The notes beneath the pieces were generated by a model that did not search any database, was not told the origin of the DNA, and was given only the letters and a program-made list of their open reading frames with translations. A stretch of 22,498 nt of DNA, from UHGV virus genome UHGV-1419557; one strand, written 5' to 3'. Source of the DNA: a virus. A program made the position numbers and the translations under genes. Shown piece by piece: positions 17,944-22,498 of this stretch; position 1 is the first letter of the stretch; every line of letters starts with the position of its first letter.

Positions 17944-17972
17944 AGCCACGGATGGCTAATTTTTATTCTTTG
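17944..17972 (+). terminator. Weak intrinsic terminator after gene 16
   Basis: 5-bp stem agcca / tggct with cgga loop, followed by AATTTTTATTCTTT. Confidence 0.3.
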
Positions 17973-18306
17973 ATCTCGTCCACAGGTAAAGAAGAGCAAT
18001 GGCAAGACAGGAAACAGAGAATAGATAACCTACCTCATATGGTGCGCCAAAAAAATTAGCTATTGATACGGGCAAAAAAGCCGAAGCGATCAGAATTGAA
18101 AGGCAAAAAATAAGCCCAGTAACATAGTTTATTAAACTCTTAAATGAGAAACGTTTTGCTTGATTTACGGTCTCAGCGAGTGATCGCTTAACGATGGATA
18201 AAAGCAAATAGATGGCGACAGTAGCTAATGCCCCTTTCCACCAGTCTGGATATAGTTTTGCGACAATCAGCCCAAGGAAAACCATGATGACAGACTGAGC
18301 ATTCAC
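17956..18306 (-). CDS. Small integral membrane protein (about 4 TM helices), function unknown; candidate superinfection-exclusion-type moron
   Basis: 116 aa with four hydrophobic segments. GTG start with SD aaggagg 5 nt upstream. Convergent with gene 16, divergent from the adjacent + strand operon. AT-rich. Confidence 0.6.
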   Translation of the reverse strand: MNAQSVIMVFLGLIVAKLYPDWWKGALATVAIYLLLSIVKRSLAETVNQAKRFSFKSLINYVTGLIFCLSILIASAFLPVSIANFFGAPYEVGYLFSVSCLAIALLYLWTRSKNKN

Positions 18307-18385
18307 ACCAACCTCCTTAGTTTTGCGCAGGATACCAGATGATGTATAGGAGTGGGAGTAAAGTTAGTCGGTGATAGAACGGTGG

Positions 18386-18414
18386 TTGCATAATGATATC
18401 ACGTGACGTAAACT
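18386..18414 (+). promoter_or_regulatory. Candidate promoter for the two-gene operon, with embedded palindrome TCACGTGA
   Basis: TTGCAT (18386-18391), 17-bp spacer, TAAACT (18409-18414). Perfect 8-bp palindrome TCACGTGA (18399-18406) lies inside the spacer. Confidence 0.3.
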
Positions 18415-18481
18415 TATTGCGCATAGCGTGTATTCAATGGATGCATAGCTATTGATAATCTCCGATAAGAAGGAGGTTTGT

Positions 18482-19048
18482 ATGAGCAATGAGACTAATG
18501 GGATTGATGAAATGTTTAGCTTGAACGCTGCCAAAGCTGGAGTCGCAATAGGTTTGCTATTACAGCAAGCTTCTGCGTTCAGTTGTGAGGTGGTTGTTAC
18601 TGATAACGTTCAGCACGCTTACCATCAATCCTCATTCAGCAGTGAACGGGCTAATGATGAGCTTCATGAGGCGGTGTCTTCGATTAAAGAATTGTCTCGA
18701 ATGCTGAAATACGCTTATCGTGTTCTTGCAAACGCTACCGATGAGAATGTAGACAATGTGTTGTCTATCATTGAACCAGAAAAGTCTCGATTGATAGAGC
18801 ATCAATTGAGAGGACTTGAAGGGGCAATGAAATCGGTATTCAAAGAAGCTTCTGCTGATTTTAAAGAGATCGCAAGAGATATCTATATCGTTGTTGCTGA
18901 TGCCAGATCTGCCGTAACCAACCTGAATAGTCTTATTAAACAACGCTCATGTGTTCCGGTTGTTTTTGATAGTTCCGTAGATATGGCTGGTTTGCGTGCG
19001 CTTGCTGAGCACGGGACTCGTGTGTTTCACTCTGGTAACTTCCACTGA
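18482..19048 (+). CDS. Hypothetical protein (188 aa), first gene of a two-gene operon; candidate partner/antitoxin of the downstream YafO-like protein
   Basis: Strong SD aaggagg 6-7 nt upstream of ATG 18482. Stop is 8 nt before the next start, whose SD lies across this stop. No recognised domain. Confidence 0.65.
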   Translation: MSNETNGIDEMFSLNAAKAGVAIGLLLQQASAFSCEVVVTDNVQHAYHQSSFSSERANDELHEAVSSIKELSRMLKYAYRVLANATDENVDNVLSIIEPEKSRLIEHQLRGLEGAMKSVFKEASADFKEIARDIYIVVADARSAVTNLNSLIKQRSCVPVVFDSSVDMAGLRALAEHGTRVFHSGNFH

Positions 19049-19056
19049 GGTAAAAC

Positions 19057-19506
19057 ATGCAAGTAACCGTGGAATATAATCAGGATAGTTTTGACTATTT
19101 TTTCTCCCCGGTTTTTGTTGAGTTTCCTGATTTAAAACAAACACTTGTAGATGATTTTATCATCTACAAGTCTACGGGAACGTTGCCCAGCTATTTTGGC
19201 AGAGACACCTCTTATCATCGACCTCCTGATATTGAAGATGCAGGCCTTATGCACCTTCATTTAGCAATTGGTGAAAATAAATTTGAGCCAATAAAAAATG
19301 GCACAGATATCAGCACACCGCAAAAGTTGCAGTGGCATAAAACATCCAATACCGCTCTCGTTTATGCACAAAATCTTTTTGATGAGAACAGGTATTCATT
19401 GATTGCTCTTTTTCATCCTGTAGCTCACATGTCTGCTAACAATCATAATAGAATGAGAGTGTTAGCAGGGTATGCGAGAGACTTTAGAAACACTATGTTT
19501 GACTAA
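19057..19506 (+). CDS. YafO-family toxin-like protein (putative ribosome-dependent mRNA interferase domain)
   Basis: 149 aa. DFIIYKSTGTLPSYFGRD ... HLHLAIGEN.F.P ... ALVYAQNLFDEN.YSLIALFHPVAHMSANNHNRM ... FR parallels recalled E. coli YafO (DFISYKRDGVLPDIFGRD ... HIHLANENNPFPP ... HLVYCQGAFDEQAWLLIAILKPEPH ... DNNQM ... FR). Followed by a strong terminator. Confidence 0.6.
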   Translation: MQVTVEYNQDSFDYFFSPVFVEFPDLKQTLVDDFIIYKSTGTLPSYFGRDTSYHRPPDIEDAGLMHLHLAIGENKFEPIKNGTDISTPQKLQWHKTSNTALVYAQNLFDENRYSLIALFHPVAHMSANNHNRMRVLAGYARDFRNTMFD

Positions 19507-19530
19507 ACCCACCGTCAGGTGGGTTTTTTA
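19507..19530 (+). terminator. Intrinsic terminator after the YafO-like operon, possibly partly bidirectional
   Basis: Stem aacccacc / ggtgggtt, loop gtca, then TTTTTT. A-run upstream gives weak reverse-strand potential for the convergent ClpP-like gene. Confidence 0.7.
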
Positions 19531-19554
19531 TAAGGAGTAATCATGATTTACCCA

Positions 19555-20091
19555 TCAAACAACCCACCAGTTTGCCTGATTGGATGCCAGCCTTGCAGTT
19601 TTTATGGAATTAATTATGCCATGCTCAAGAGCCTTGTTAGCATCCAAAATGGTCGAGTCTGCTATCAGGGATGCCCACCTAATATGGGTTCCGATGTCGA
19701 TATTGAACGTCTCAACGAAGCGATCAAGATCGTTATCGAGGCATTTCCCGTACTCTCTCAATCTGGCATGGTCGGCGGCTGGGGAGGCAAAGCACCATAA
19801 TAGAGGATGTAACAGGAATCTTGATAATGGGTTTGCGAAACGTTCTGAGCCAGCCAGGAAAACGATATTAGCTATGGATTCAACATTGCTTATGTTGTGA
19901 GTTCTAACGGTAACAGGGAGTGACTTAAGAAAGTTATACGCAGTAAAGCCAGCAGCAGTTTCCCCTCCCTGACTTGATATATGGATATTTAATTCAGTTG
20001 CGCCTTGAGATAATGCGGTGAGACAGTGGTTCTGAAGTTGCCCAACAGTGGCAGTGTTAACAGGGCATAAGAAATGAATTGTGTGCAGCAT
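19555..20091 (-). CDS. Compact ClpP-like (peptidase S14 / ClpP-crotonase fold) protein, translationally coupled to mnt
   Basis: 178 aa. IHISSQGGETAAGFTAYNFLKSLPVTVRTHNISNVESIANIVFLAGSERFANPLSRFLLHP aligns by eye with ClpP [63 protein letters not shown], with the catalytic Ser and His positions conserved and a candidate Asp downstream. Start ATG overlaps mnt stop (TAATG on - strand); SD aagga upstream. Confidence 0.65.
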   Translation of the reverse strand: MLHTIHFLCPVNTATVGQLQNHCLTALSQGATELNIHISSQGGETAAGFTAYNFLKSLPVTVRTHNISNVESIANIVFLAGSERFANPLSRFLLHPLLWCFASPAADHARLREYGKCLDNDLDRFVETFNIDIGTHIRWASLIADSTILDANKALEHGIINSIKTARLASNQANWWVV

Positions 20092-20339
20092 TATTTTTCA
20101 TCCTTAGCATACATGGTCTTTAGCGTCTCAAGTAGCGCCTCTTTGAATTTATCAGCTTCTTGCTGAGCAAATGACTCAACTGACTTTGGCGACCTATCTT
20201 CATCAATCGCGGCTTGCAAAATCATGACGATCTCGGAGTTAACAGAGCGACCATTTTTTGATGCTCTGACAGCAAGAGCCTCGCGTAAAGATTCAGGGAT
20301 TCTTACCGTAGTTGGAGAAATTGACACACCCTTTGCCAT
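20091..20339 (-). CDS. mnt: Mnt repressor (ribbon-helix-helix, Arc/MetJ superfamily)
   Basis: 82 aa from ATG 20339 (- strand). NGRSVNSEIVMILQAAI motif and ...ETLKTMYAKDEK C-terminus parallel recalled P22 Mnt. Divergent from arc as in P22 immI. Confidence 0.8.
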   Translation of the reverse strand: MAKGVSISPTTVRIPESLREALAVRASKNGRSVNSEIVMILQAAIDEDRSPKSVESFAQQEADKFKEALLETLKTMYAKDEK

Positions 20340-20453
20340 ATAACACCTTTGGTATTCAATTTGATAGCAAAGTGTATGCAAAAAAATTTTGACTAGATAT
20401 ACTCACTTTGCTATCTTTTGTATTCGAAAAGAGTTGTTTGCGTGGAGGGTAAC
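20340..20453. promoter_or_regulatory. mnt-arc divergent control region (candidate Pant/Pmnt and operators)
   Basis: 12-bp inverted repeat arms GATAGCAAAGTG (20363-20374) and CACTTTGCTATC (20404-20415). Candidate Pant: TTGACT at 20389-20394, TATCTT at 20412-20417. Arc SD ggaggg at 20444-20449. Confidence 0.5.
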
Positions 20454-20606
20454 ATGGAGAAAGAAATAAGTAAGATTTTGGTAAGGATGCCGCAGTCGTT
20501 AAAGGATGCTATCGGTAGCAGGGCAAAGGAAGAGTGCAGGTCGTTTAACTCAGAGGTTATCAAGCGCCTGATAGACAGCCTGAAGAGAGAGGGGGTAACG
20601 GTGTGA
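20454..20606 (+). CDS. arc: Arc repressor (ribbon-helix-helix)
   Basis: 50 aa from ATG 20454. ECRSFNSEVIKRLIDSLKREG parallels recalled P22 Arc NGRSVNSEIYQRVMESFKKEG. Upstream of ant as in immI. Confidence 0.8.
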   Translation: MEKEISKILVRMPQSLKDAIGSRAKEECRSFNSEVIKRLIDSLKREGVTV

Positions 20607-20776
20607 TTCGCTTGGATGCAGTAGTCAAAGAGATTGCGATTACCATTTTAAGACCAAATTTTGTTCATGGCGAATCATTTGGCACGAACGAAAAATTGAG
20701 AAGAGAAAGAGTATTCAGTGGCAAGCGCACGTTTTCAGAAGTGATGCTTGATGCGGCAAAGAAATCAAAACAGTGA
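20603..20776 (+). CDS. Possible small ORF (57 aa, GTG start) in the arc-ant spacer; speculative
   Basis: GTG at 20603 overlaps the arc stop (GTGTGA) with SD-like gagggggt 7 nt upstream. Open to TGA at 20774-20776. Lys/Arg-rich product, no known domain. Confidence 0.25.
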
Positions 20777-20842
20777 AGCCCCAACTGCTGGAACAGTCAG
20801 GGCTTCGGTTGTCGGTAAATCCGTGGAGAAAAACCAACATGA
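20758..20842 (-). ncRNA. sar: Candidate sar-like antisense RNA covering the ant ribosome-binding site
   Basis: On the - strand: extended -10 TGCTATACT (complement of 20845-20853) would start transcription near the ant ATG. Hairpin (gaagccc 20775-20781 / gggcttc 20800-20806 plus inner 4-bp stem) followed on the - strand by TGTTTTGATTTCTTT acts as terminator. Predicted RNA about 70-85 nt, antisense to the ant SD and start, as for P22 sar. Confidence 0.35.
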
Positions 20843-21741
20843 ATAGTATAGCAATTTTAGAAGCAGTGAACACCTCTTACGTGCCATTCAACGGTCAGCA
20901 AATTATCACCGCCATGGCTGCCGGAGTTGCATATGTTGCGATGAAGCCAATCGTTGAAAACCTCGGAATGAGCTGGTCAACGCAGCAAACAAAACTCATG
21001 AAGCAGATTAGCAAATTCAACTGTGTTCATATGAACATGGTTGCCGCTGATGGTAAGCTTCGTAAGCTACTCTGCCTTCCTTTGAAGAAGTTAAATGGAT
21101 GGCTGTTCAGCATCAACCCTGAGAAAGTTCGTGCTGACATCCGCGATAAACTGATTCAGTACCAGGAAGAATGCTTTACTGTGCTGCATGACTACTGGAC
21201 AAAGGGAGAGGCAGCAAATGCACGGAAGAAAACATCTGTTGATGACAGGACTCCGCTTCGTGATGCTGTAAATATGCTAGTCAGCAAAAAGCATCTAATG
21301 TACCCAGAAGCTTATGCAATGATTCATCAGCGTTTCAATGTGGAAAGTATTGAAGAGCTTGATGCATCTCAGATACCACAAGCAGTAGAGTACATCCACA
21401 GGGTAGTGCTTGAAGGTGAGTTCATCGGCAAACAAGAGAAGAAAACCAACGAGCTTTCTGCAAAAGAAGCAAACAGCCTTGTATGGCTATGGGATTATGC
21501 CAACCGCTCACAGGCATTATTCCGCGAACTGTATCCGGCGCTAAAACAAATTCAATCGAACTATTCCGGCAGATGTCATGACTGCGGTTATGAGTTCTCC
21601 CGTATTATCGATATGGCGAGAGACGTTTTAATCAATCACACACGAGATGTTGATATCAATGAGCCAGACGGACCAACGAATCTTTCCGCATGGATGAGAC
21701 TTAAGAATAAAGAATTACCTCCTTCAGTACATAATTACTGA
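20839..21741 (+). CDS. ant: Antirepressor Ant
   Basis: 300 aa from ATG 20839. [57 protein letters not shown]... matches recalled P22 Ant. Follows arc and is followed by a terminator and the tailspike gene. Confidence 0.9.
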
Positions 21742-21760: not shown

Positions 21761-21783
21761 CCCAGCTTCGGCTGGGTTTTTTT
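21761..21783 (+). terminator. Intrinsic terminator after ant
   Basis: cccagc-ttcg-gctggg hairpin followed by TTTTTTT. Confidence 0.75.
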
Positions 21784-21841
21784 ATGCCCAAAATTCACCG
21801 TGGCCATGCTGCGGCGATTCTTTGCATCTGGAGCAAATTAA

Positions 21842-22498
21842 ATGACAGACATTACAGCCAATGTGATTGTATCGATGCCTTCGCAACTCTTCACTATGGC
21901 GCGTTCTTTTAAAGCCGTAGCCAATGGCAAAATTTATATCGGTAAAATTGACACTGACCCGGTAAATCCTGAAAACCGGATTCAGGTTTATGTAGAGAAC
22001 GAAGACGGCTCTCACGTTCCTGTTTCGCAACCAATCATCATTAACGCTGCTGGTTACCCTGTATATAACGGACGGATTGCCAAGTTCGTAACTGTGCAAG
22101 GCCATTCTATGGCTGTGTACGATGCGTATGGCGTACAGCAGTTCTATTTCCAGAATGTGCTGAAGTATGATCCTGATCAACTACGGCAGCAATTAGAAGA
22201 CCCAGATGGAGCGAATAAATACCCAAAACTTCAGATAGCAAGATGGAGAGACAGTTATGATGTAAGAGGTTGGGGGGCTATTGGTGATGGTGTTCATGAT
22301 GATACATCAGCTCTATCAGAATTACTTTCTGTTGCAACAGGTGGTGAAAAGATAGATGGGCGAGGGCTTACTTTTAAAGTATCAACTCTTCCAGATGTCA
22401 GTCGATTTAAAAATGCTCGTTTTTTATTTGAGAGAATACCGGGTGGATTTGCCCCTATATTTCCAGACACCTGTTATCACTTAACCCATTACTGGCTT
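21842..22498 (+). CDS. Tailspike protein, 3-prime partial: P22 gp9-type head-binding domain followed by a different receptor-binding domain
   Basis: SD ggag 8 nt upstream of ATG 21842. First ~115 aa ([59 protein letters not shown]...VLKYDPDQ) match recalled P22 tailspike N-terminus. Downstream [15 protein letters not shown] is a pectate-lyase-superfamily beta-helix entry motif. Open to window end. Confidence 0.9.

What the first reader, a model, noticed from the sequence alone, without database searches (positions are those of the whole stretch)
19555..20339. Truncated ClpP-like serine-peptidase gene translationally coupled to the mnt repressor gene
The 178-aa product aligns by eye to the ClpP core from the GG motif through the catalytic Ser and His, with a plausible Asp downstream, but lacks the N-terminal axial-pore segment. 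Its start overlaps the mnt stop by one base, so it should be made with Mnt in the lysogen. A standalone ClpP-like protease in the immunity region is unexpected: it could degrade an incoming-phage or host target, or control the convergent toxin-like operon. This linkage to the toxin pair is speculation.
Basis: partly seen in the sequence, partly recalled or inferred. Interest (0 to 1): 0.75.

Follow-up and report, generated by a model that had tools for sequence, protein, structure and literature searches.

The report
Prophage short ClpP coupled to mnt
A P22-like E. coli prophage carries, right behind its Mnt repressor gene, an intact gene for a naturally short ClpP-type peptidase subunit of a recently solved family, so it is a real lysogen-expressed cargo gene of unknown role and has no conserved tie to the neighbouring toxin genes.

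Summary
ORF 19555-20091 (-) encodes a 178-aa ClpP-superfamily protein, and its ATG overlaps the stop of an Mnt-type repressor gene (TAATG).

It is not a broken gene. It aligns end to end with PpClpP1 of Pseudomonas plecoglossicida (PDB 9UXT, E 1.6e-35; model TM 0.93). PpClpP1 is a natural short ClpP that lacks the axial loops.

Ser72 and His95 are invariant in the family. The third triad position is Ser146, not Asp, and is S/A/T/G in relatives. Most residues of the ClpX/ClpA docking pocket are polar. Selection is purifying (dN/dS about 0.08).

128 of 5,426 complete E. coli genomes carry the gene, always after an Mnt-type gene.

More distant relatives (75% identity or less) have no such partner. 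They sit alone, antisense, in other prophage cargo slots, or on chromosomes.

The YafO-like pair accompanies the gene in only 5 of 50 close loci, so the toxin link is not supported.

Best reading: a lysogen-expressed accessory ClpP subunit that acts through the host ClpP/ClpX, as PpClpP1 does. This step is inferred, and the biological role is unknown.

Verdict: new member of a known kind in an undescribed prophage setting, of moderate interest.

The parts
19555..20091 (-). Gene for a 178-aa short (N-terminally truncated) ClpP paralogue of the PpClpP1 type. Ser72 and His95 are the catalytic pair, and Ser146 sits at the position of the canonical Asp.
   Evidence: ORF. Pfam PF00574 at 44.4 bits. 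PDB 9uxt_A E 1.6e-35. AF2 pLDDT 91.6 and TM 0.93. Family alignment. dN/dS 0.08.
20091..20339 (-). Mnt-type ribbon-helix-helix repressor gene (82 aa), first cistron of the operon.
   Evidence: Pfam Arc 9.5e-11. 36% identity over the full length to P22 Mnt, E 7e-14. RefSeq names it 'Arc family DNA-binding protein'.
20089..20093 (-). TAATG stop/start overlap between mnt and the ClpP-like gene.
   Evidence: Read directly from the sequence. The same junction is present in the close-clade loci that carry an Mnt-type gene upstream.
20101..20105 (-). AAGGA Shine-Dalgarno sequence for the ClpP-like gene, inside the last codons of mnt, 9 nt from the ATG.
   Evidence: Sequence. The mnt 3' end (...ETLKxxYGKDxK) is conserved while the mnt 5' part varies.
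19505..19529 (.). Hairpin AAACCCACC-GTCA-GGTGGGTTT plus a T run, between the convergent YafO-like and ClpP-like genes. It is probably a bidirectional intrinsic terminator, strong rightward and weaker leftward (only TTT after the stem).
   Evidence: Sequence. An identical 42-bp stretch in Salmonella phage Emek is annotated as a terminator (H8/H9). The consensus scan did not flag it.
20389..20417 (+). Pant-like promoter (TTGACT-17-TATCTT) for arc and ant, divergent from mnt. No Pmnt was identified with confidence.
   Evidence: Promoter scans. Layout compared with the P22 record.
20362..20415 (.). 12-bp perfect inverted repeat, GATAGCAAAGTG (20362-20373) and CACTTTGCTATC (20404-20415), bracketing the Pant -35 hexamer. 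Candidate operator half-sites.
   Evidence: Sequence. Not tested further.
20454..20606 (+). arc-like repressor gene (50 aa).
   Evidence: Pfam Arc 9.6e-12. RefSeq annotation.
20839..21741 (+). Antirepressor gene ant.
   Evidence: Pfam P22_AR_N 5e-45 and P22_AR_C 2.7e-28. RefSeq names it 'phage antirepressor Ant'.

Best explanation
The gene encodes an accessory, naturally short ClpP subunit of the PpClpP1 type. A P22-like prophage carries it as cargo (a moron), placed as the second cistron of the mnt operon. It is therefore made together with Mnt while the phage is a prophage.

Shown here:
- ClpP fold.
- Invariant Ser72-His95 pair and oxyanion Gly43.
- No axial N-terminal loops and no helix A.
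- No Asp at the third triad position.
- A mostly polar surface where canonical ClpP binds the IGF/IGL loops of ClpX and ClpA.
- Strong purifying selection.
- A TAATG junction with an internal ribosome-binding site.

Inferred from the solved and assayed homologue (42% identity):
- It forms heptameric rings with a wide pore and weak peptidase activity.
- It cannot dock an unfoldase and does not degrade proteins on its own.
- It stacks on a ring of the host's single canonical ClpP, giving a mixed tetradecamer that ClpX or ClpA can enter from the host-ClpP face only. This would change the amount or output of Clp proteolysis in the lysogen.

What that achieves for the prophage is not known. Possibilities include steadier lysogeny, interference with superinfecting phages, or a fitness effect on the host.
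For: Homology and fold.

Catalytic residues and the loss of Asp and of the docking pocket. The pocket residue list comes from bioRxiv 10.1101/820209. The E. coli ClpP sequence used was verified against PDB 3mt6.

Properties of the homologue: a homo-tetradecamer with Ser73-His96-Pro151, a 42.7 A pore, no ClpX binding, no degradation of casein or GFP-ssrA alone, a hetero-tetradecamer with canonical ClpP2 and slightly higher ClpX-dependent degradation (PMC12900304). An analogous modulation of ClpXP assembly by P. aeruginosa ClpP2 is reported in PMC13056064.

Functional gene: dN/dS 0.077 against an 80%-identical copy. The length stays at 178-187 aa across genera. The N-terminus MLHT(I/V)HF is conserved in copies that have their own ribosome-binding site.

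Operon: the TAATG junction and SD. The junction recurs behind at least six different Mnt DNA-binding alleles and in Pectobacterium. The P22 mnt transcription unit also has a second cistron before its terminator.

Cargo behaviour: relatives lie antisense between lysis and terminase genes (Klebsiella, Leclercia, E. coli), between N and erf (Proteus) and between tail-fibre and lysis genes (Chromobacterium). The whole clpP-mnt-arc-ant block is also found between tail genes L and K of a lambda-like phage.
Against: - No expression data were examined, and Pmnt could not be located with confidence.
- Mixed-ring formation with E. coli ClpP rests on 42% identity to one studied protein from a different genus. 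Nothing here tests the ring-ring interface.
- Only a monomer was modelled, so the oligomeric state is not predicted.
- The leftward terminator is weak (three T residues).
- No partner gene is conserved. This fits use of host ClpP but proves nothing.
- The gene matches no PADLOC defence model.
Confidence: 0.55

Rival explanations
1. It is a self-sufficient, ATP-independent open-pore peptidase. The homo-tetradecamer, lacking the gating loops, lets unfolded or newly injected phage proteins or peptides diffuse in and destroys them, without host ClpP or an unfoldase. It would thus act as an exclusion or defence device.
For: - No axial loops. The homologue has a 42.7 A pore and forms a homo-tetradecamer.
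- Ser-His is invariant.
- It sits in lysogen-expressed cargo slots where exclusion genes such as sieA lie.
Against: - PpClpP1 alone did not degrade FITC-casein or GFP-ssrA and has 13-fold lower peptidase efficiency than the canonical paralogue.
- No hit to any PADLOC model.
Confidence: 0.15
2. It is a dampening or 'poison' subunit. By capping host ClpP rings with a face that cannot bind ClpX or ClpA, it lowers Clp proteolysis in the lysogen and stabilises some phage or host protein.
For: - The docking pocket is largely polar and the N-terminus is missing.
- The homologue does not bind ClpX.
- Its intrinsic activity is low.
Against: In the studied system the mixed particle was slightly more active with ClpX, not less. 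The catalytic Ser and His are invariant under purifying selection, which a pure blocker would not need.
Confidence: 0.15
3. It is a toxin-antitoxin-like pair, with the ribbon-helix-helix protein as antitoxin and autoregulator and the ClpP-like protein as toxin.
For: An RHH gene comes first with a one-base overlap, which is the usual type II layout. The RHH also hits the FitA-like antitoxin RHH family at 2.1e-8.
Against: - The RHH is a full-length Mnt homologue placed divergently from arc-ant, exactly as in P22.
- Family members at 75% identity or less have no RHH or other conserved partner and stand alone.
- In Massilia and Pseudomonas the gene is in chromosomal settings.
Confidence: 0.03
4. 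It is a decayed remnant of a ClpP-type prohead (head-maturation) protease, as the annotation of phage phiv205-1 suggests.
For: Best PHROG is phrog_94 'head maturation protease' at 7e-21. The phiv205-1 record calls it a head maturation protease.
Against: - NCBIfam Clp_rel_HeadMat scores 49 bits against a cut-off of 120.
- The gene lies outside the head module, on the opposite strand and behind a repressor gene.
- It shows full-length identity to a cellular ClpP paralogue with a solved structure.
- dN/dS is 0.08.
- From general knowledge, P22-type heads mature without a protease.
Confidence: 0.02

Closest known systems
PpClpP1 of Pseudomonas plecoglossicida (PDB 9UXT; PLoS Pathog 2026, PMC12900304)
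   Same: - Similar length (178 against 183 aa), with an end-to-end alignment (E 1.6e-35, 42% identity) and TM 0.93.
- No N-terminal axial loops.
- Ser and His retained, with a non-Asp residue at the third triad position.
   Different: - The third residue is Ser here and Pro in PpClpP1.
- This copy sits in a prophage operon behind mnt, in a host (E. coli) that otherwise has one ClpP. The Pseudomonas gene appears to be in a chromosomal setting, which was only partly examined.
- Oligomer formation and activity are untested for this protein.
Accessory ClpP paralogues that work only in mixed rings (P. aeruginosa ClpP2, Listeria ClpP1, Mycobacterium ClpP1P2)
   Same: A second ClpP type that pairs with a canonical ring and leaves unfoldase docking to one face. 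Listeria ClpP1 also lacks the canonical Asp (it has Asn), as cited.
   Different: Those are core chromosomal genes of normal length with N-terminal segments. They were much weaker matches here (E 1e-5 to 1e-7).
Canonical E. coli ClpP (TIGR00493)
   Same: Same fold (TM about 0.83), same Ser-His positions and the same oxyanion Gly.
   Different: - 19 bits against a cut-off of 308.6.
- Lacks about 40 N-terminal residues of the precursor.
- No Asp171 equivalent.
- 7 of 10 alignable IGF/IGL-pocket residues are polar.
ClpP-related phage prohead proteases (NF045542, phrog_94)
   Same: Phage-borne ClpP-superfamily domain of similar size.
   Different: The score is below the family cut-off. The gene is not in the head gene cluster, is expressed from a lysogenic operon, and has no scaffold or capsid fusion.
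P22 orf59a, the second cistron of the P22 mnt operon
   Same: Same slot: downstream of mnt, upstream of the terminator, next to the sieA region.
   Different: An unrelated 59-aa protein of unknown function, not overlapping mnt.

Membership tests
Pfam CLP_protease (PF00574) / MEROPS S14 superfamily | Profile score above the gathering threshold | tested here: met
   44.4 bits against 20.2, E 2.2e-11.
Pfam CLP_protease (PF00574) / MEROPS S14 superfamily | ClpP fold | tested here: met
   AF2 pLDDT 91.6. Foldseek TM 0.80-0.85 to many ClpP structures.
Pfam CLP_protease (PF00574) / MEROPS S14 superfamily | Catalytic Ser and His at the canonical positions | tested here: met
   Ser72 and His95 align with E. 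coli Ser97 and His122 and are invariant in 29 relatives.
Pfam CLP_protease (PF00574) / MEROPS S14 superfamily | Asp as the third triad residue | tested here: not met
   Ser146 aligns with Asp171. The column is S/A/T/G in the family and Pro in 9UXT. Mutating that residue in PpClpP1 kept about 60% of activity.
Canonical ATP-dependent ClpP (TIGR00493 / PRK00277) | Equivalog score above the cut-off | tested here: not met
   19.2 bits against 308.6, and 31.3 against 249.
Canonical ATP-dependent ClpP (TIGR00493 / PRK00277) | N-terminal axial loops and helix A that gate the pore and contact the unfoldase | tested here: not met
   The protein begins at the position of E. coli precursor residue 39.
Canonical ATP-dependent ClpP (TIGR00493 / PRK00277) | Hydrophobic IGF/IGL docking pocket (L48, F49, F82, Y60, Y62, I90, M92, F112, L114, L189) | tested here: not met
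   The aligned residues are L24, T25, S57, N35, H37, H65, I67, F85, N87 and K164.
Short ClpP paralogues of the PpClpP1 type | Full-length similarity to the solved member | tested here: met
   E 1.6e-35 over residues 3-175 against 4-179. 71 of 170 positions identical. TM 0.93, rmsd 1.6.
Short ClpP paralogues of the PpClpP1 type | N-terminal truncation with Ser-His and a non-Asp third residue | tested here: met
Short ClpP paralogues of the PpClpP1 type | Tetradecamer, and mixed tetradecamer with a canonical ClpP; no ClpX binding | not testable with these tools
   Only a monomer could be modelled. This needs biochemistry or multimer modelling.
ClpP-related prohead protease (NF045542) | Score above the cut-off and a position in the head-assembly module | tested here: not met
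   49.3 bits against 120. The gene lies in the immI region on the opposite strand.
Type II toxin-antitoxin pair | Conserved two-gene partnership across the toxin family | tested here: not met
   The RHH partner occurs only in the E. coli and Pectobacterium clade. Relatives at 75% identity or less stand alone.
S49 (SppA / lambda C) peptidases | Profile match | tested here: not met
   No S49 family among the Pfam hits at E up to 1.
Known anti-phage defence systems (PADLOC 2.0) | Match to any defence protein model | tested here: not met
   No family at E up to 0.1.

The most novel reading that the evidence does not exclude
Temperate phages of enterobacteria spread a short ClpP subunit as a lysogenic-conversion gene. 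In this reading it inserts into the host's single ClpP machine and rewires ClpXP or ClpAP proteolysis in lysogens. Here it is wired directly to the Mnt repressor, so that it is on exactly when the antirepressor is off. The pay-off would be protection of lysogeny or exclusion of other phages that depend on, or are sensitive to, Clp proteolysis.
Probability: 0.3. Interest if true: 0.7.

Novelty: new member of a known kind. Interest (0 to 1): 0.4.

Why it matters
E. coli is the reference organism for ClpXP and ClpAP and is treated as having one ClpP. About 2.4% of complete E. coli genomes (128 of 5,426) carry this second, prophage-borne, structurally atypical ClpP.

If it mixes with host ClpP, as its Pseudomonas relative does, lysogens would differ from non-lysogens in regulated proteolysis. 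That could affect stress responses, prophage induction, stability of toxin-antitoxin systems and the outcome of superinfection.

It would also be an example of a phage altering a host protease by supplying a subunit rather than an inhibitor.

The gene is easy to test in a tractable host. If it proves inert, the finding is simply a correctly annotated accessory ClpP.

Tried and rejected
- Fragment or assembly artefact. Rejected: identical length in 126 complete genomes and similar lengths in other genera, and a full-length match to a 183-aa solved protein.
- Canonical triad using Asp145 or Asp150. Rejected by the alignment with E. coli, M. tuberculosis and P. plecoglossicida ClpP. Neither Asp is conserved.
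- Functional link with the YafO-like pair. Rejected: they co-occur in 5 of 50 close loci, all of them the same prophage type.
- Obligate link with Ant. Rejected: Ant types vary or are replaced (Bro-N in Pectobacterium), and Ant is absent next to distant relatives.
- Defence-system membership. No PADLOC hit.
- S49 peptidase. No hit.
- Literature on a prophage or immI ClpP. Searches with protein accessions, 'prophage-encoded ClpP', 'P22-like + Clp protease + immI' and the P22 SieA paper gave nothing relevant.
- Locating Pmnt by consensus. No convincing leftward promoter was found.
- Neighbourhood analysis in Pseudomonas and Massilia by naive ORF calling. It was noisy in these GC-rich genomes. 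It shows only that the upstream gene in many Massilia loci ends ...YHVPLVxTPWSYSTYRGS, which from memory resembles a 5-hydroxyisourate hydrolase, and that a 404-408-aa protein with a conserved N-terminus lies downstream in two Pseudomonas loci.
- Measuring Ser-His geometry in the model.

Full report
**What is in the sequence**

The minus strand between 19555 and 20339 holds two tightly packed genes.

The upstream gene, 20339..20091, encodes an 82-aa ribbon-helix-helix protein. It hits Pfam Arc at 9.5e-11 and is 36% identical over its whole length to authentic P22 Mnt (E 7e-14).

The downstream gene, 20091..19555, encodes 178 aa. On the coding strand the junction reads TAATG, so the mnt stop and the second gene's ATG share one base. 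An AAGGA ribosome-binding site lies 9 nt upstream, inside the last mnt codons.

Arc-like and Ant genes diverge from mnt on the other strand. To the left, a 188/198-aa ORF and a YafO-family gene converge on the ClpP-like gene across a GC-rich hairpin at 19505-19529.

The rest of the window is the late region of a P22-like prophage. The stretch searched (19555-20339) is 100% identical to E. coli ATCC 11775.

**Is it a ClpP?**

Yes, at the level of fold and superfamily.
- Pfam CLP_protease scores 44.4 bits against a threshold of 20.2.
- An AlphaFold2 model built on 29 relatives has mean pLDDT 91.6.
- That model superposes on many ClpP structures with TM about 0.83.

It is not a canonical ClpP. 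NCBI's ClpP equivalog models score 19-40 bits against cut-offs of 228-361. The ClpP-related head-maturation model scores 49 against 120.

**The closest known protein**

The best match in the PDB is 9uxt_A: E 1.6e-35, residues 3-175 against 4-179, 42% identity, TM 0.93 and rmsd 1.6 A.

This is PpClpP1 of Pseudomonas plecoglossicida, published in 2026 (PMC12900304). That paper reports the following:
- It is the shortest characterised ClpP, and it lacks the N-terminal segment.
- It has a 42.7 A axial pore and forms a homo-tetradecamer.
- Its triad is Ser73-His96-Pro151. Ser and His are essential. Changing the Pro leaves about 60% of activity.
- Its peptidase efficiency is 13-fold lower than that of the canonical paralogue.
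- It does not bind ClpX and does not degrade casein or GFP-ssrA alone.
- It forms a stable mixed tetradecamer with the canonical ClpP, and with ClpX that particle degrades substrates slightly better.

'Truncated' is therefore the normal state of this family, not damage to this gene.

**Active site and docking surface**

I aligned 29 family members with E. coli ClpP, with a fragment of M. tuberculosis ClpP1 and with PpClpP1. The E. coli sequence was checked as identical to PDB 3mt6.
- Ser72, His95 and the oxyanion Gly43 are invariant.
- The column of E. coli Asp171 holds Ser146 here, S/A/T/G in relatives and Pro in PpClpP1.
- The protein starts where E. coli ClpP reads KERVIFL, so the axial loops and helix A are missing.
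- Ten residues of the E. coli pocket that binds the IGF/IGL loops of ClpX and ClpA can be aligned (residue list from bioRxiv 10.1101/820209). Seven of them are polar here: N35, H37, S57, H65, N87, K164 and T25.

The sequence thus predicts no unfoldase docking, in line with the pull-down result for PpClpP1.

**Is it a working gene?**

- Against an 80%-identical copy, dN is 0.130 and dS 1.68, giving a ratio of 0.077.
- Length and the MLHT(I/V)HF start are conserved across Escherichia, Pectobacterium, Leclercia, Serratia, Providencia, Klebsiella, Pantoea, Proteus and Chromobacterium.
- A search of 1.84 billion cluster representatives found 524 clusters at E up to 1e-10, many of about 180-190 aa starting at the same point.
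- 128 of 5,426 complete E. coli genomes carry the gene. It is always chromosomal, and in every listed full-length hit RefSeq annotates it beside an 'Arc family DNA-binding protein'.

**Context**

In the close clade (94% identity or more in E. coli, 80% in Pectobacterium) the gene follows an Mnt-type gene with the same TAATG junction. The exceptions are one copy with a frame-shifted junction (L129) and two copies cut short by insertions (L137, L149).

The Mnt proteins fall into at least six different DNA-binding alleles. All share the C-terminal ...ETLKxxYGKDxK. The recombination joint therefore lies inside mnt, and the 3' end of mnt, which carries the ClpP ribosome-binding site, travels with the ClpP gene.

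The clpP-mnt-arc-ant block also occurs between tail genes L and K of lambda-like PhiR12 phages. In other P22-like prophages it has different left-hand neighbours.

In P22 itself the annotated mnt terminator lies beyond a second cistron, orf59a. The slot occupied here is therefore an established part of the lysogenic mnt transcript.

Relatives at 75% identity or less have no RHH partner. They have their own ribosome-binding sites and sit alone, antisense to the surrounding phage operons:
- between the lysis and terminase genes in Klebsiella, Leclercia and E. coli;
- between N and erf in Proteus;
- between tail-fibre and lysis genes in Chromobacterium.

In Massilia and Pseudomonas the gene looks chromosomal. 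That context was only partly examined.

**The toxin link**

The YafO-like pair is present in only 5 of 50 close loci, all of them the same prophage as the window. Nothing ties the ClpP-like gene to it.

**Mechanism**

Shown: this is a catalytically equipped, short ClpP subunit placed in the lysogenic mnt operon.

Inferred: it forms rings and, like PpClpP1, stacks on the host's ClpP ring, so that ClpX or ClpA can engage only the host face. This would modulate Clp proteolysis in the lysogen. P. aeruginosa ClpP2 gives a precedent for an alternative ClpP that tunes ClpXP assembly (PMC13056064).

The benefit to the phage is unknown. Rival readings are an ungated stand-alone peptidase, a dampening cap, a toxin-antitoxin pair and a decayed prohead protease. 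The last two are essentially excluded by the comparative data.

**Novelty**

The protein family, its structure and its biochemistry are known, and RefSeq already names the gene a Clp protease subunit.

I found no paper that describes it as prophage cargo or as part of the immI/mnt operon. The searchable library is incomplete.

I file it as a new member of a known kind in an undescribed and testable setting.

Noticed in passing
L008 4492-4674 (E. coli 14EC017 prophage); also L114 4310-4489: In some P22-like immI regions the small ORF between arc and ant encodes a 60-aa protein with the ClpX N-terminal C4 zinc-finger motif (MNKEDGFKCSFCGKPQ...CSGC). RefSeq names it 'ClpX C4-type zinc finger protein'. 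One locus (L114) carries both this ORF and the short ClpP. This is a second hint that immI regions touch the ClpXP system.
   Followed up: partly
window 20603-20776 (+): A 57-aa ORF (GTG start, no cysteines) overlaps the arc stop and sits between arc and ant. It occupies the place of the zinc-finger ORF above but is unrelated. It is present in 13 of 50 close loci. P22 has the sar antisense RNA in this position.
   Followed up: partly
window 20362-20373 and 20404-20415: A perfect 12-bp inverted repeat, GATAGCAAAGTG / CACTTTGCTATC, flanks the -35 hexamer of the Pant-like promoter in the mnt-arc intergenic region. These are candidate operator half-sites for this Mnt or Arc allele.
   Followed up: no
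window 18452-19506 (+): A two-gene unit. The first gene is a 188/198-aa protein (phrog_8416, unknown function, no Pfam family). It is followed 8 nt later by a 149-aa YafO-family protein (Pfam 3.4e-22; NCBIfam 79 bits, below the 153-bit equivalog cut-off). The upstream gene is not YafN-like, so this would be an atypical partner for a YafO-type toxin.
   Followed up: partly
window 17956-18306 (-): A small predicted membrane protein lies in the position of P22 sieA, just after the gene 16 homologue, but shows no detectable similarity to P22 SieA (E 0.29) and has no PHROG or PADLOC hit. It could be another SieA type or a different exclusion protein.
   Followed up: partly
window 19505-19546: The hairpin region between the convergent genes is 100% identical over 42 bp to Salmonella phage Emek, where it is annotated as a terminator. 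Nothing else from 18300-20450 matched that phage at near-identity sensitivity. It may be a mosaic recombination joint.
   Followed up: no
window 21782-22498; L007 7510-9812: In ATCC 11775 an IS21-family element (ISEc12, istA/istB) is inserted between ant and the tailspike gene. The prophage may therefore be defective. The end of the window probably enters this element, which I did not check directly.
   Followed up: no
family alignment A1, C-terminus (query residues 174-178): The short-ClpP family ends in a conserved hydrophobic motif, N-W-W-V, often followed by one more residue and Cys. The model predicts it as a beta-strand (residues 173-177). In canonical ClpP the C-terminal strand borders the unfoldase-docking pocket, so this tail might occupy that surface.
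   Followed up: no
L137 and L149 (IMG/VR contigs): Two copies of the short ClpP gene are cut at their 5' end (matches start at residues 62 and 56). The flanking ORFs look foreign, and one resembles a transposase. The gene is thus occasionally inactivated.
   Followed up: no
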